Source of the DNA: the human T2T-CHM13v2.0 reference genome, Homo sapiens | Assembly: GCF_009914755.1 (NCBI RefSeq) | Contig: NC_060925.1 | Reading direction: 5' to 3' (one strand) | Length of the DNA: 64,000 nt | Part shown: piece by piece, positions 1 through 18,356 of the stretch | How the letters are laid out: the number at the start of each line of letters is the position of its first letter | Numbering within the stretch: the first letter of the stretch is position 1 | Program-made: the position numbers and the translations under genes | Notes under the pieces: model-generated | What the model saw: only the letters and a program-made list of their open reading frames with translations | What the model was told of the DNA's origin: nothing | The model's database searches: none

Positions 1-480
1 AGTTGCTATTTTTTTAGGTTAGTAATTTCTGTGTTATCTCTCAGAGTATCAACAGAATATATCCTTCCTTACAAACTGATTACAGGAAAAAGAGGCAGGA
101 TAACTTCCTGAATCATGTTTATTGCTGCTGTGTATCCTCTACCTCCGATCTCTGGATTGTGGCCCTTTATGAACTTTTCTTATGTTACTCTCTACCCTTA
201 ACCTAAAGACCAGCTCCATGAGTCCACATAAGCAGCAACCTAAAGCCCATAAGCAATCCATGGACCCCCATATCATCCTTGCTTTTCCCCAACTTACTTC
301 TGCTTTGGTGGAACCATTCAGAGAGCTTCCAAATCCAGACTTCAGCTATCTTCTCTACCGCACAAGTTTGAATTAAAACTATTAGCATTCTTTCCTTTAA
401 ACAGCCTTTGATCATGCAGCAAAATTGGCTGTTTTGAAGGACCCATTTTTCAGTCATAACCTCATCCTATTTGCAGATCA

Positions 481-589
481 TTTAGTTACCACAATAATGT
501 TATCACAATATTGAGTTACCACAATACTGTTATCACAATATTGAGTTACCACAATAATGTTACCACAATATTGAGTTACCACAATAATA
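481..589. repeat. 30-bp minisatellite, ~3.6 copies (TTGAGTTACCACAATAATGTTATCACAATA)
   Basis: 30-nt period directly visible at 481, 511, 541 and 571. Confidence 0.95.
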
Positions 590-1444
590 TCTGCTGATTG
601 GTTCAATTTATTTAAGACTGCAGGATTTACAATACTCTGAAGCATATCCACAATCCTTAACAAAAACAAACAAAAACAAAAACAAAAAACAAGAAAACAA
701 AGAATTTTTCACATCTTCTTCCCTACCAGAAGTTCAGTGTTCTTCCAAATATTGCAAGCCTTCAACACTCTCATGATATGAAACTGAAGCCACTTACATT
801 TAATCTATGAGCAATGCGAAAATACTTGAGCAATCATGAGTTCAATCATCGAGATAATACAGTTTAGTCATAGTTAAGAGGGCAGTTGGTGACAAATTCC
901 TTTCTCTGTATTTGAGAAGGATCTCCATATTTGTAATGATGTTCTATCTCTGACAAGCTATGGGTTTATCAACTCTTAATAATTGGATGAATGATTCATA
1001 TAGTATATAAACCAAAACTGATTTCATAGAAGACCCTCCCCCATCCAGGAGATGCAGTCAAATATACTGGCAGCGATAGACAATTCTGCCACTGCCACTC
1101 TGTGAATAGTAGAAGATGGAGAAATGGCTAGGCATGTCTCATCTTTCTCCTTTGATATTTTAGCTGTATTCAAGGGACATTTACATCTCCTGGATAATAA
1201 AGTTTTAATATCAAAATTTAAGTCCCCTGGAGAATAACCTTCCAATATCAGAATTTATTTCAGGCATGAATACATTACCAGAAAATAAAAAAAAATTCTG
1301 CTGTCATTTTTTATTTCATTTTGATAAATTATTTACAGGAAAGAAATAGTTTAGTTTCTCTTGCTAAGGGTATAAAAATCTAAGATCATGGATGGGAGGA
1401 GTTACACAATTGTTCCATAACTTTGCTGTCTTCCTGGGGCATAG

Positions 1445-1685
1445 AACAGTATGATGAAGCCAACACTAGTAAAGTTTTAAGTGACTCAAACCAATGCCAT
1501 TTTTTATTGTTACCTTTCAAACTACTTCACTTTCTTAGCCTTTCACAAGATTATAACATCCTTCAGCTCAATTTTTTGGATAGTTTTAATGATTTATTAT
1601 TCTGTTAGTACAAAACTGTTATTTCTACATTTTCTGGAGGAAAAAAAATCAAAGTCTAGAATACTGCAAAAGAAGTTCCAGAGAG
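1445..1685 (+). pseudogene. Exon-1-like segment, copy A (GT donor retained at 1686)
   Basis: ctttcttagcctttcacaagattataacatcc...agaagttccagagag|GTGACA aligns with PYHIN1 ttttcttagcatttcaggagattataacatcc...agaaattcccagtaag|GTGAGT. Confidence 0.8.
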
Positions 1686-1752
1686 GTGACACCTGTGGGG
1701 ATTTGCATAAAAATTTGGGAACTCCTTTGTTAACCACAAGATTACAGAGGAA

Positions 1753-15237: not shown

Positions 15238-15400
15238 CGTTTGCTTGTTTTAGAGAGGAAGTCTCACTAAGTTCTCTGGCTAGAGTGCAGTGGCTATCCA
15301 CAGGCATGATCATACTGCACTGCAGCCTGAAATTCCTGGACTCAAAGGATTTTCCCACCTCACTGCTGAGAGTAGAGGCATGCCCCATCATGCCTGGCTA
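15238..15400 (-). mobile_element. Fossil Alu monomer (FAM/FLAM-like) with TSD CATCTTGTTTT
   Basis: 7SL-like agtgcagtggctatccacaggcatgatc; TSD at 15227-15237 and 15401-15411. The empty site is present in PYHIN1 intron 5 (~42790). Confidence 0.8.
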
Positions 15401-15498
15401 CATCTTGTTTTTAATCTGTCACAGTCTTTTTCTCATATGTACAGCAGTTACTATGTTCTCAGGAACTGAATATTTAGTTTTCACTAAATGATAATTTT

Positions 15499-15665
15499 AT
15501 CTATAAAATTCAGGATATAGGAAATAACAATATCCTGCAGAGAGGAAAATGTCACAATATCTCCTGCAAGAAAAGAGATAAGTTTCAACTCTCCTTCTTT
15601 CAACTGAAAAAAAAAAAAAGAACCAGAGGTCAAAACTGACTTTTTAAATGCATAGTTTATCCAAG
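15499..15665 (+). pseudogene. HIN-domain exon-6 remnant #1
   Basis: IYKIQDIGNNNILQRGKCHNISCKKRDKFQLSFFQL vs PYHIN1 [37 protein letters not shown]. Frameshift in a poly-A run, then SKLTF*MHS. Acceptor and donor are degenerate. Confidence 0.9.
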
Positions 15666-18356
15666 CGAGAGTCAGATGTGGTTATCCCTAATATAACTAA
15701 TACGTTATATGCATTACGGACATTTTCTTACAGTGTTTGCTGTGTATTTTCACTGTGTTTACTTTTCCGTGAAAGGCAAAGTAAACACAGTGAAAATACC
15801 AGTTTTACAAAGAGGAAATTAATTTGCTTTAAGCTTTAGGAAAACCAGATTTTTGTTGTTTTATATTTAGATTCCAAGCAGAAGGAATGAGAAACCAAAT
15901 GATGCCCTTGTACTCACATTTAAACAGAGAAACTTATTAAAATATATTAGTAGAATGACATTTATTATAGGTTTCTGAAAGATATGAAACTTGTACTAAC
16001 TAATAAAATATTTGAGGAAATTAAGAGGTCAGGAAACTAATTTAACATCGTGGTCAAAAAGATAGACTTCCTCTACATCTGGCTCATTAGTTACATGAGA
16101 TGGGAGAAATAGCTTAAATATTCATCATGAGATCGGTTTAAAAGCCAAGAAGAAAAACTTGATTAAATTTGATTGCATGCAAATTCTAAATGTCTTTATT
16201 TTAAAAAAAGGCAAAGTAAACACAGTGAAAATATACAGCAAACACTGTAAGAAAATGTCTCTAATGCATGTAACTAATACAGGGTATGTATTCACAGTAT
16301 GGGGATGACCACATAGTCTCTTATTTGAACAGCCCATTTGCAAAATGGGCAAAAGATCTGAATAATCACTTTATTCAAATGTCAAATACACATGATCAGA
16401 TGCTCAACATTACCAGCAATTAATGACTTCCAGAGCATCAACCTATATGGTACAAGATATTAGCCAAGAACAAGAGAGGATGTTTAACAGCGAAAAATAA
16501 TTTATTGTGACTTTTACAGGAGCTTGAATGCCCTCATTGGAAGAGTCAACATTAATAAAATCTGAATTATTACCATTAATATGGCCATGTCATTTTTATC
16601 GGCAGGTGCTAGAGAAATGCTACTTATACATGTAGCATTTACAATTAATATATGTAGCATTAAACAATTATCAGGAACATTCTGTCTATTAAAATGTAAT
16701 CTTCCTTCAACCCTATTATCCACTTACATTTATATATTAAAACACATTATATATGACAAATTTAATACTCAGCTATTTCTTTGAAGTTTTGCTTTCATTA
16801 TATAAATGTAAAATTTGCATTTCAGTCCCTAATATCTTATTGCTTAAAAATGTTTTATAGTATTTGTTATAGGGTAAAATTTATACACAAAGAAAATTCA
16901 TGCAAATCTATTTGGTGGCTTCATGACCTCAGGAGTGCACACCCTGTAGTTTGAGAAGTGTAGTGTTGTACTATGCATAATAGCTAACTACTAAATATTA
17001 TATTACTGTTTACAAAATGCTTTCACATGGAGTCTCAAAGATGAAAAGAAAAAACAAAACATTCAGGGACAACTACTTATCTCTGGAATGAGATGATAAT
17101 TACTTTAAGTACTCAGCATGGAATGCCTGATATACACTTGCTATTTATTGTAATCTTCCAAAGATCACATTTTCAATTAGGTAGATGACTTACCTGAGGC
17201 CACACTGCTAGTAAAAGGACTGAACTCAAGTTTTCTGAATGCAGGTGCTCCGTTCTTTCTTTTGCCAACTGCCTTCTTACAATACAGAGTGCAATGGCGT
17301 TTTTTTTTTATTTAAAAAAAAAGAAATAAAGAAAAACAAGGTTGGCGTTATTGGCTGTGATTTGGAAGGCACCAACCCAAACATCAAGTCCTATTATAAT
17401 TGAAGTATTAGCAATTATTTTATTTTCCTAAGTCATTTATCTCTCTTCAGCTAGAATATCTGCACAGCTTGATCCCTCACTTTTTTTAGATTTCTGCTTA
17501 ATTGACCACTCCTAAGCTTGACCTTCAGTGAACAAATGCTGCAAAATGGCACATGACACCATAAGTCTCTATTACCTTACATGACTTGCATTTCTTCATA
17601 GCAGTTATCTACTTGACATTATGGTATATAAGCTATTGCTATTCATTTATTTTTTAATTGGCAGCCTGCTGAAATAGAACAGATTGTGGGCAAGGACTTT
17701 GCTATTCATTTCTGTACTCCTACCACCTAGAATAGTATTGCACATACTATAGGTATTATATAAACATTTTAAAAAGAAATTTGTGTTAAATCAACTGTCT
17801 AGACATGCCTGCCTAAGAATGCAACCCTGAGAATCTCCATTTACTAGGCTTTATTGATACATTTGGTGTTAGTAATCTAGGGCCAGAGTTAGTTGAGCAT
17901 GGATACCAAGTGTCTTCATTGTACATTCTCCAAGAGGGATTTCCAAGCCAGAAATAGCATAGATGAAAAACAGAACAAACCACTAAACCATGTCTACTTG
18001 TGGAATAATTTCAAAACGGAAAAAGTTGAGAAGGCTTTTCAAAATCTAAGATATTATGCCAAATATATAGCACTACACAGAATCAAGGTAGGAAGCTTAG
18101 AAACTTGTATCTCCAGAAGGAGTAATCCAACTTTCTATGGTTGCACTGTGCAAGTTACTCTAGATTCCAAGAAGGAAGTAAAACATGGTGTACTGCAGGG
18201 AAACTCAAAGTAATTGAGTTTGTTTGAATTTTCAGACTAAGCTGATAGAAAAACATGGTTTATTTTAAAGGTTCTGCTATCAGTTATTTTTTCATCATAA
18301 TTTAACTGGTGAATCTGATATTTATTTAGGCTCTGAGTGTATTTTTATTCAGGTTA

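What the first reader, a model, noticed from the sequence alone, without database searches (positions are those of the whole stretch)
1..16110. Cryptic, heavily decayed PYHIN gene directly upstream of PYHIN1
Seen: blocks similar to the PYHIN1 promoter, exon 1, intron 1, exon 3, intron 3, intron 4, intron 5, exon 6 and intron 6, in largely gene order on the same strand. The ORF track does not show it because the large coding exons are gone. Known: the PYHIN/ALR cluster of DNA sensors evolves by birth and death. Inference: this is a lost ALR paralog that may be unannotated. It carries a fossil Alu monomer where PYHIN1 has the empty site, which points to a very old duplication.
Basis: partly seen in the sequence, partly recalled or inferred. 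Interest (0 to 1): 0.8.

Follow-up and report, generated by a model that had tools for sequence, protein, structure and literature searches.

The report
Decayed PYHIN gene fragments upstream of PYHIN1
The 16 kb upstream of human PYHIN1 holds the broken, intron-containing remains of duplicated PYHIN DNA-sensor genes, which is ordinary wreckage of a gene family that grows and shrinks by tandem duplication and is not a working gene.

Summary
With repeats masked, window 21-16143 gives 17 same-strand matches to the PYHIN1 gene and 0 on the other strand. They cover promoter, exon 1, intron 1, exon 3 with intron 3, intron 4, intron 5, exon 6 and intron 6. The best block (13582-15143) matches nothing in the genome outside the PYHIN cluster.

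The exon-6 relic still scores as a HIN domain (Pfam 25.1 bits, cut-off 22.7). It has lost both splice sites and carries frame-breaking indels. The PYD exon, exon 4, the first HIN exon and exons 7-9 are absent.

It is not one simply decayed gene:
- Exon 1 occurs twice and intron 4 three times.
- Two "exon 1 fused to intron 4" units form a lineage of their own, with a third copy 38 kb upstream near PYHIN5P.
- Only the 3' half (6272-16143) is roughly equidistant from PYHIN1 and IFI16 (K about 0.23-0.26).

The "fossil Alu monomer" is an ordinary-aged Alu right arm and dates nothing. RefSeq has no gene here. GENCODE could not be checked.

Verdict: an unannotated (in RefSeq) mosaic, unprocessed pseudogene remnant, of modest interest.

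The parts
21..1752 (+). Copy B: relic of a PYHIN promoter, exon 1 (about 1450-1690) and the first ~65 nt of intron 1. The exon-1 donor GT is kept.
   Evidence: 21-415, 428-479 and 572-1752 match PYHIN1 28842-30936 (63-77% identity); it also matches the MNDA and IFI16 promoters; multiple alignment.
1753..2067 (-). Alu inserted after exon 1 of copy B. This is an independent insertion. The copy near PYHIN5P has its own Alu about 45 bp away, with its own target-site duplication.
   Evidence: alignment; one search list (1772-2053, 12.2% from the consensus).
2069..2761 (+). Copy B: intron-4-like segment joined directly to the start of intron 1. The equivalents of exons 2-4 are missing.
   Evidence: 2150-2759 matches PYHIN1 38405-39036 (61%); 2102-2761 matches W-37550..-36890 (74%).
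3958..4405 (+). Copy C: second relic of proximal promoter and exon 1. The donor site is lost.
   Evidence: 3958-4047 and 4082-4388 match PYHIN1 30530-30930; 4118-4397 matches 1478-1755 (71%); alignment.
4411..5525 (+). Copy C: intron-4-like segment that starts at the equivalent of the first bases of PYHIN1 intron 4 (38340). It runs past the PYHIN1 Alu site, which is empty here.
   Evidence: 4411-4840, 4882-5066 and 5111-5471 match 38340-39743; local score 153 against a shuffle maximum of 43.
5953..6268 (+). Intron-1-like piece. It is distant from PYHIN1 and IFI16 (p 0.37) and groups with PYHIN5P intron 1.
   Evidence: matches PYHIN1 34384-34697 (66%); tree, psiW with psi5P at 83%.
6272..6502 (+). 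Last 60 bp of exon 3 (6272-6331; donor GT changed to GC) plus intron 3. The junction at 6268/6272 skips the PYD exon 2, intron 2 and the first 86 bp of exon 3.
   Evidence: alignment, 73% to PYHIN1. PYHIN1 exon 3 positions 87-146 match 6272-6331, E 1e-8..
6496..6681 (+). Right-arm-only Alu of ordinary age. It marks the point where homology to PYHIN1 intron 3 breaks.
6683..13581 (.). Block made mostly of inserted dispersed repeats. I call them L1-like from recall, not from a repeat library. It replaces the equivalent of PYHIN1 37804-38412, including exon 4. The RefSeq 'enhancer' 8428-8929 lies inside it. Sub-stretches of this block (about 10518-11455 and 12830-13581) were not tested genome-wide.
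   Evidence: 6708-8518 and 11456-12826 match the 6-kb masked repeat at 51885-57900; 8557-10162 has 4844 genome-wide candidates..
13582..15143 (+). Intron 4 relic of the younger, PYHIN1/IFI16-like part. The PYHIN1 Alu site is empty here.
   Evidence: 77.5% and 73.3% to PYHIN1 38413-40465; matches only inside the PYHIN cluster genome-wide. K80 0.234.
15141..15237 (+). 3' end of intron 5. The abutting junction at 15141-15143 is a clean deletion of about 2.2 kb (PYHIN1 40466-42698). That deletion removes the first HIN exon (exon 5).
   Evidence: 14311-15143 matches 39621-40465, and 15141-15237 matches 42699-42800 (84%).
15238..15400 (.). Short dispersed repeat inserted in the intron-5 relic.
   Evidence: all the many hits on other chromosomes are confined to query positions 89-275.
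15485..15664 (+). Relic of exon 6 (second HIN exon). Acceptor AG is changed to AC and donor GT to GC, and several indels break the frame. It is still recognisable as a HIN domain.
   Evidence: alignments, 67% to PYHIN1 and 69% to IFI16 HIN-A; tblastn E 2.65e-9. Pfam PF02760, 25.1 bits against a cut-off of 22.7.
15794..16143 (+). Intron 6 relic. Homology to PYHIN1 stops at 16143 (PYHIN1 43447), about 520 bp before exon 7.
   Evidence: 73.6%; sharp junction at 16142/16143.
16142..24158 (+). Not part of the relic gene. This is the upstream flank of PYHIN1 and is paralogous to the PYDC5 5' region and IFI16 upstream flank (W100075-107265). It contains an older relic of a second HIN exon at 22752-23098.
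   Evidence: collinear blocks at 71-82% identity.; relicW22k pairs with relic106k at 100%.

Best explanation
Window 21-16143 is non-functional, unprocessed pseudogene debris of the PYHIN (HIN-200/ALR) family. Tandem segmental duplication made it and deletions then eroded it. It is a mosaic of at least two lineages.

1. An older dead lineage. Here exon 1 plus about 65 nt of intron 1 became fused to the start of intron 4, which removed exons 2-4. This unit was then copied. Copies B (21-2761) and C (3958-5525) lie in the window. A third copy, A, lies at W-38382..-36890, upstream of PYHIN5P. The intron-1 piece at 5953-6268 groups with this side.

2. A younger partial copy (6272-16143, exon 3 to intron 6). 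It arose at about the same time as the PYHIN1/IFI16 split. It later lost exon 4 to a repeat-filled replacement and the first HIN exon to a clean 2.2-kb deletion. It also lost the splice sites and reading frame of the second HIN exon.

The copy ends in intron 6 against the PYHIN1 upstream flank. That flank is itself a paralogue of the PYDC5/IFI16 upstream flank.

What is shown: the homologies, junctions, lesions, trees and distances. What is inferred: the order of events, and that nothing here encodes protein or is under selection.
For: - Same-strand collinear homology that includes introns: 17 plus-strand HSPs against 0 minus-strand.
- Genome-wide, the match is limited to the PYHIN cluster.
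- The HIN relic is above the Pfam cut-off but has broken splice sites and indels.
- The exon-3 donor is GT changed to GC.
- No trace of the PYD exon, exon 4, exon 5 or exon 7.
- There are abutting junctions at 6268/6272, 15141-15143 and 16142/16143.
- Second-HIN-exon tree: (psiW,(PYHIN1,IFI16A)) at 99%.
- K80 of the 3' half to PYHIN1 is 0.234-0.259 and to IFI16 is 0.24. PYHIN1 against IFI16 in intron 4 is 0.235-0.245.
- Units A, B and C form a 100% clade in the intron-4 tree. In the exon-1 tree the support is 99% and 83%. They are p 0.39-0.41 from true intron 4, whereas the 13582 copy is 0.24 from PYHIN1.
- The intron-1 piece is p 0.37 from PYHIN1 and IFI16, which are 0.23 apart.
Against: - The trees rest on short alignments (227-601 columns). 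Some nodes are weak, at 49-57%.
- PYHIN1 and IFI16 promoters and exons are constrained. Part of the extra distance of copy B (K 0.34) could therefore be a rate effect and not greater age.
- In one 238-bp stretch of intron 4 the relic is farther from PYHIN1 (K 0.324) than from IFI16 (0.24). The distances are noisy.
- Gene conversion is known in this family and could imitate a mosaic.
- No other species could be examined, so neither the age nor the order of events was tested.
- Transcription or regulatory use was not tested.
- GENCODE status is unknown.
Confidence: 0.8

Rival explanations
1. One reading: one complete ALR paralog once occupied 1-16143 and simply decayed in place. On this view the duplicated exon-1 and intron-4 pieces are later internal rearrangements of that one gene.
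For: - All pieces lie on one strand and broadly in gene order.
- In both the exon-1 tree and the second-HIN-exon tree, the window's copies branch beside (PYHIN1, IFI16). One lineage would fit that pattern.
Against: - The intron-4-like pieces B and C are p 0.40 from the intron-4 copy at 13582 in the same 'gene'. That copy is only 0.24 from PYHIN1.
- The intron-1 piece is 0.37 from PYHIN1 and IFI16 and pairs with PYHIN5P.
- A sister copy of unit B lies 38 kb upstream.
- There is no trace of exons 7-9.
Confidence: 0.15
2. The similarity is an artefact of shared dispersed repeats (Alu, L1, MIR, L2), and no gene relic exists.
For: About half of 1-16143 is repeat sequence: Alus at 1753-2067 and 2797-3125, and repeats at 3671-3957, 6496-13581 and 15238-15400.
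Against: - With those stretches masked, 17 collinear plus-strand HSPs remain and 0 minus-strand.
- 13582-15143 hits only the PYHIN cluster genome-wide.
- The exon-6 relic scores as a HIN domain.
Confidence: 0.01
3. The relic has been put to use as a non-coding element, for example an interferon-responsive alternative promoter, an enhancer or a lncRNA acting on PYHIN1. This could be true alongside the pseudogene origin.
For: - Promoter relic B keeps an exon-1 donor GT and aligns across the core promoter of PYHIN1, IFI16 and MNDA.
- RefSeq lists an enhancer at 8428-8929 (hub table).
Against: - The promoter relic is no better conserved (about 65%) than the intronic relics.
- A simple ISRE-core pattern scan found no site in it. 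The same scan also found none in the PYHIN1 and IFI16 promoters, so the test is weak.
- The RefSeq enhancer lies inside a dispersed repeat, not in PYHIN-derived DNA.
- No expression data were available.
Confidence: 0.07

Closest known systems
PYHIN5P (RefSeq pseudogene, W-22192..-20034)
   Same: - It is an unprocessed PYHIN pseudogene in the same MNDA-PYHIN1 interval and on the same strand.
- It also lacks the first HIN exon.
- It also has a relic of the second HIN exon, carrying a stop, outside its annotated span (W-17573..-17430).
- A fused exon-1/intron-4 unit (A) lies upstream of it and is sister to the window's unit B.
   Different: - PYHIN5P keeps recognisable PYD, exon 3 and exon 4 sequence. 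The window relic has none of these large exons.
- The PYHIN5P 3' end is MNDA-like (75-81% identity; 87% node). The window relic's 3' end is PYHIN1/IFI16-like.
- The deletions that removed the HIN exon have different end points.
PYHIN1 (IFIX) and IFI16, HIN-A clade
   Same: - The part at 6272-16143 is homologous to both through exons and introns. It is about equally distant from each (K about 0.23-0.26).
- It falls in the same clade for the second HIN exon (99%).
   Different: - It has no PYD, no first HIN exon, no exon 4 and no exons 7-9.
- Its splice sites and reading frame are destroyed.
- Its 5' part comes from another lineage.
AIM2 unprocessed pseudogenes of cow, dog, pig and others (Brunette 2012 PMC3478938; Cridland 2012 PMC3458909; passages read)
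   Same: They are degenerate, unprocessed ALR pseudogenes in which large parts are deleted and only single exons remain recognisable.
   Different: Those are dead orthologues of a single-copy gene (HIN-C). This one is a dead extra copy of the HIN-A type in a species that keeps its functional paralogues.

Membership tests
PYHIN / HIN-200 gene family (as a pseudogene member) | HIN-200 domain sequence (Pfam PF02760) | tested here: met
   the translation of 15499-15618 scores 25.1 bits against a cut-off of 22.7, covering profile positions 132-168 of 168. Only the last fifth of the domain survives. The exon that encodes positions 2-122 is deleted.
PYHIN / HIN-200 gene family (as a pseudogene member) | N-terminal pyrin (PYD) domain exon | tested here: not met
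   - tblastn best E 1.5.
- blastn with four paralogous PYD exons, best E 0.063.
- Local alignment score 52 against a shuffle maximum of 49.
- The junction at 6268/6272 skips the exon.
Unprocessed (duplicated) pseudogene | Homology to the parent gene extends through introns and promoter, with no poly-A or intron loss | tested here: met
   promoter and introns 1, 3, 4, 5 and 6 are all represented.
Unprocessed (duplicated) pseudogene | Lies in tandem with its paralogues in the same cluster and orientation | tested here: met
   plus the hub table: it sits between PYHIN5P and PYHIN1 on the + strand.
Unprocessed (duplicated) pseudogene | Disabling lesions | tested here: met
   - acceptor AG changed to AC, two donors GT changed to GC, and frame-breaking indels.
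- exons 2, 4, 5 and 7-9 are absent.
Unprocessed (duplicated) pseudogene | Neutral evolution or loss confirmed across species | not testable with these tools
   No other mammalian genome is held. Only within-genome paralogue distances could be computed.
Free (fossil) Alu monomer, FRAM/FLAM | Monomer that is older and more diverged than the arms of dimeric Alus | tested here: not met
   15.1% (8.2% outside CpG) from the local right-arm consensus, rank 24 of 39 Alus. No FRAM consensus was available, so a 5'-truncated ordinary Alu is the better reading but is not proven.

The most novel reading that the evidence does not exclude
The event that produced PYHIN1 and IFI16 was really a triplication. 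On this reading, window 6272-16143 is the human remnant of a third HIN-A sensor gene. That gene may survive intact as the extra 'PYHIN1-like' genes reported in the ring-tailed lemur and slow loris (PMC13253634, passages read). Anthropoids, humans included, would then have lost an ALR that strepsirrhines still use.
Probability: 0.25. Interest if true: 0.4.

Novelty: new member of a known kind. Interest (0 to 1): 0.25.

Why it matters
- It adds detail to the birth-and-death history of the human ALR cluster. Besides four PYHIN genes, PYDC5 and PYHIN5P, the MNDA-PYHIN1 interval carries further dead copies. These include one born at about the same time as PYHIN1 and IFI16.
- The flanks of PYHIN1 and IFI16 are paralogous and share an even older HIN relic.
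- This helps when assigning orthology to the extra PYHIN1-like genes of other primates.
- It also flags PYHIN-like sequence that could mislead read mapping, or the interpretation of variants and enhancers near PYHIN1.
- It does not reveal a new gene, function or mechanism.

Tried and rejected
- Search for a PYD relic by tblastn, sensitive blastn and local alignment with shuffles. Nothing rose above chance. The weak hits I first read as intron 2 turned out to be the intron-4-like copy C.
- I first read 5931-6263 as intron 2 with the 5' part of exon 3. I also read its match upstream of PYHIN5P as a separate fragment. Searches show that it is intron 1 in both places.
- A shared Alu between copy B and the copy near PYHIN5P would have dated the duplication. 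The alignment shows two independent insertions about 45 bp apart. An apparently shared Alu between copy B and PYHIN1 intron 4 is also a different site.
- A relic of PYDC5 (POP3) coding sequence downstream of the pseudogene. tblastn found only PYDC5 itself and AIM2. Only the PYDC5 5' flank is duplicated here.
- An ISRE-core scan of the promoter relics was uninformative. It hit only MNDA.
- No cross-species comparison was possible, and no GENCODE lookup.
- Six literature searches gave no description of this relic. 'PYHIN5P' itself gave 0 papers.
- Supplements of the papers were not opened.
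Full report
All coordinates are window (W) coordinates. Negative values, and values above 64000, come from flanks fetched from the same genome.

OBSERVATION

A first blastn of W1-26000 against W28001-64000 gave 36 HSPs. Many are Alu or long dispersed repeats. A low-copy, plus-strand, collinear series runs from the PYHIN1 promoter to intron 6.

I masked the stretches shown to be repeats and used more sensitive settings. W1-16400 then gives 17 plus-strand HSPs to PYHIN1 28600-45000 and none on the minus strand:
- promoter, exon 1 and the start of intron 1: 21-415, 428-479 and 572-1752
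- intron 4: 2150-2759
- promoter, exon 1 and intron 1 again: 3958-4388
- intron 4 again: 4411-5471
- intron 1: 5953-6268
- exon 3 and intron 3: 6272-6493
- intron 4: 13582-15143
- intron 5: 15141-15237
- exon 6 with its flanks: 15401-15670
- intron 6: 15794-16143

The blocks are not dispersed repeats:
- W13582-15143 finds only 7 places in the 3.1-Gb genome, itself included. All are in the PYHIN cluster.
- W16685-18358 finds itself, one full-length paralogue and two short chance hits.
- By contrast, W8557-10162 has 4844 first-look candidates.
- W15229-15415 hits many chromosomes.

CODING CONTENT

tblastn with the six PYHIN1 coding-exon peptides against W1-30000 finds only exon 6:
- 15499-15618: 46% identity over 41 residues, E 2.65e-9.
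- 22781-22939: a second, separate relic, E 2e-5.
- Exons 2, 3, 4, 5 and 7: best E 1.5, 1.4, 4.9, 0.24 and 1.2.

Sensitive blastn with 18 exon queries from PYHIN1, IFI16, MNDA, PYHIN5P and AIM2 finds only the 3' part of exon 3 at 6272-6331.

The 40-residue translation of 15499-15618 passes the Pfam HIN gathering score: 25.1 against 22.7 bits, profile positions 132-168.

Base-level alignment gives 67% identity to PYHIN1 and 69% to IFI16 HIN-A. It shows that the exon-6 relic (15485-15664) has:
- acceptor AG changed to AC
- donor GT changed to GC
- several indels that are not multiples of three

The donor of the exon-3 relic is also GT changed to GC.

JUNCTIONS

- At 6268/6272, intron 1 (PYHIN1 34697) abuts the middle of exon 3 (37573). 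This skips the PYD exon.
- At about 6502, homology to intron 3 stops at an Alu right arm. A dispersed repeat follows. Homology resumes only at 13582 (PYHIN1 38413). Exon 4 is therefore replaced by about 7 kb that is mostly repeat.
- At 15141-15143, PYHIN1 40465 abuts 42699. This is a clean deletion of about 2.2 kb that removes the first HIN exon.
- At 16142/16143, intron 6 (43447) abuts sequence paralogous to W100075. Nothing corresponds to exons 7-9.

WIDER CONTEXT

I fetched 200 kb of flanks and compared the whole 264-kb cluster.

W16142-24158 and W28653-30884 are collinear with W100075-109226. That region is the PYDC5 5' region and the IFI16 upstream flank and promoter (71-89% identity). 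Both flanks contain a relic of a second HIN exon, at W22752-23098 and W106045-106397 (78% identity to each other). The PYDC5 coding exon itself has no copy near the window.

A further decayed copy surrounds PYHIN5P:
- PYD, exon 3 and exon 4, which are the annotated part
- an unannotated relic of the second HIN exon, with a stop, at W-17573..-17430
- an MNDA-like 3' end

MOSAIC STRUCTURE

In both window copies (B and C), and in a third copy A at W-38382..-36890, exon 1 and about 65 nt of intron 1 are followed directly by sequence that begins at the first bases of intron 4. This is a shared derived junction.

- In the intron-4 tree, A, B and C form a 100% clade. They are p 0.39-0.41 from the true intron-4 copies. 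The copy at 13582 is p 0.24 from PYHIN1.
- In the exon-1 tree, ((A,B) 99%, C) 83% stands apart from (PYHIN1, IFI16) 87%.
- The intron-1 piece at 5953-6268 is p 0.37 from PYHIN1 and IFI16, which are 0.23 apart. It pairs with PYHIN5P intron 1 at 83%.
- The second HIN exon with its intron groups as (psiW,(PYHIN1,IFI16A)) at 99%. PYHIN5P groups with MNDA at 87%. The two flank relics pair at 100%.

K80 distances:

| Comparison | K80 |
|---|---|
| Relic 3' half vs PYHIN1 | 0.234-0.259 |
| Relic 3' half vs IFI16 | 0.24 |
| PYHIN1 vs IFI16, intron 4 | 0.235-0.245 |
| PYHIN1 flank vs IFI16 flank | 0.22-0.26 |
| Copy B promoter and exon 1 vs PYHIN1 | 0.34 |
| Copy A vs copy B | 0.20-0.23 |

I read this as follows. 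An older dead lineage (B, C and the intron-1 piece) was joined at 6268/6272 to a partial copy made at about the time PYHIN1 and IFI16 separated.

There are caveats:
- The alignments are short and some nodes are weak (49-57%).
- One 238-bp sub-block gives K 0.324 to PYHIN1.
- Constraint on the live genes' promoters and exons inflates the relative distance of the dead copies.
- Gene conversion is documented in this family (Cridland 2012, PMC3458909, passages read).

AGE

No Alu is shared between paralogous copies:
- The Alu after exon 1 in copy B and the one in copy A are independent insertions about 45 bp apart.
- The PYHIN1 intron-4 Alu site is empty in the relic.
- Two Alus in the IFI16 flank (102732-103013 and 103503-103767) have no room in the window's collinear blocks. 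The second is 16.5% from the consensus.

From the coordinates, I infer that the duplications predate those insertions.

K of about 0.24 means about 0.12 substitutions per site per lineage. That is similar to the non-CpG divergence of the oldest Alus in the locus (0.12-0.18). Using recalled primate rates, this points to roughly the base of primates. Cridland 2012 states that IFI16 and IFIX arose by duplication within primates (passage read), which agrees.

The Alu at 6496-6681 is a right arm only, but it is of ordinary age: 15.1% overall and 8.2% outside CpG, rank 24 of 39.

WHAT IS KNOWN

The supplied RefSeq table has no gene at 1-30640. The papers and what I read of each:
- Cridland 2012 and Brunette 2012 (PMC3478938): passages found by term search. 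Both list four human genes and describe no human pseudogene.
- PMC13253634: passages. It reports five human genes including POP3, a duplicated PYHIN1 in the ring-tailed lemur and two PYHIN1-like genes in the slow loris.
- PMC7555848: passages. It notes that POP3 is 61% identical to AIM2 and probably arose by exon duplication.

Searches for 'PYHIN5P' (0 papers) and five other term sets found no description of this relic. GENCODE could not be consulted, and no supplements were opened.

VERDICT

The finding is real but ordinary. It is a mosaic, unprocessed PYHIN pseudogene remnant in a cluster known to evolve by birth and death. The annotation gap and the triplication-like timing are of modest interest. 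Nothing suggests a function.

Noticed in passing
window 22752-23098, and its paralogue at W106045-106397 (genome C1:158144045-158144397): An older relic of a second HIN exon, with stops, lies in the upstream flank of PYHIN1. It has a twin in the upstream flank of IFI16 (78% identity). The pair forms its own 100% clade, sister to the PYHIN1/IFI16A/relic clade. This is the trace of yet another dead HIN-A gene that predates the PYHIN1/IFI16 duplication.
   Followed up: partly
window 16142-24158 and 28653-30884, against W100075-109226: The whole upstream flank of PYHIN1 is paralogous to the PYDC5 5' region and the IFI16 upstream flank and promoter (K about 0.22-0.26). The duplicated unit was therefore much larger than the genes. 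The PYDC5 coding exon (W99039-99380) has no counterpart on the window side.
   Followed up: partly
W-38382..-16221 (genome C1:157999619-158021780), around PYHIN5P: - The decayed copy reaches well beyond the PYHIN5P annotation (-22192..-20034).
- A fused exon-1/intron-4 unit lies at -38382..-36890.
- A relic of the second HIN exon, with a stop, lies at -17573..-17430.
- The 3' end is MNDA-like (75-81% identity) and the 5' exons are PYHIN1/IFI16-like.
- This is the pattern expected from an unequal crossover between MNDA and a downstream paralogue.
- The first HIN exon is missing there too, but with different end points.
   Followed up: partly
window 27191-27485: Three perfectly identical tandem copies of a 98-bp unit (100% identity). 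They lie inside a stretch of about 4.5 kb (24159-28652) that has no counterpart in the IFI16 flank.
   Followed up: no
window 15704-15768 and 16210-16274: A 65-bp inverted repeat (92% identity) brackets the intron-6 relic and the 16142/16143 junction. A short palindrome also lies at 15744-15799. Part of it lies in an insertion of about 112 bp that is absent from all the paralogues. It may be connected with the rearrangement that made the junction.
   Followed up: no
window 8428-8929: The RefSeq 'enhancer' lies inside a dispersed repeat that has thousands of genomic copies. It does not lie in PYHIN-derived DNA.
   Followed up: partly
W119607-119732 and W130793-131044 (IFI16): The relic's intron 6 (15794-16143) and PYHIN1 intron 6 match two IFI16 places 11 kb apart. 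The IFI16 segment between them therefore looks like an insertion relative to PYHIN1 and the relic.
   Followed up: no
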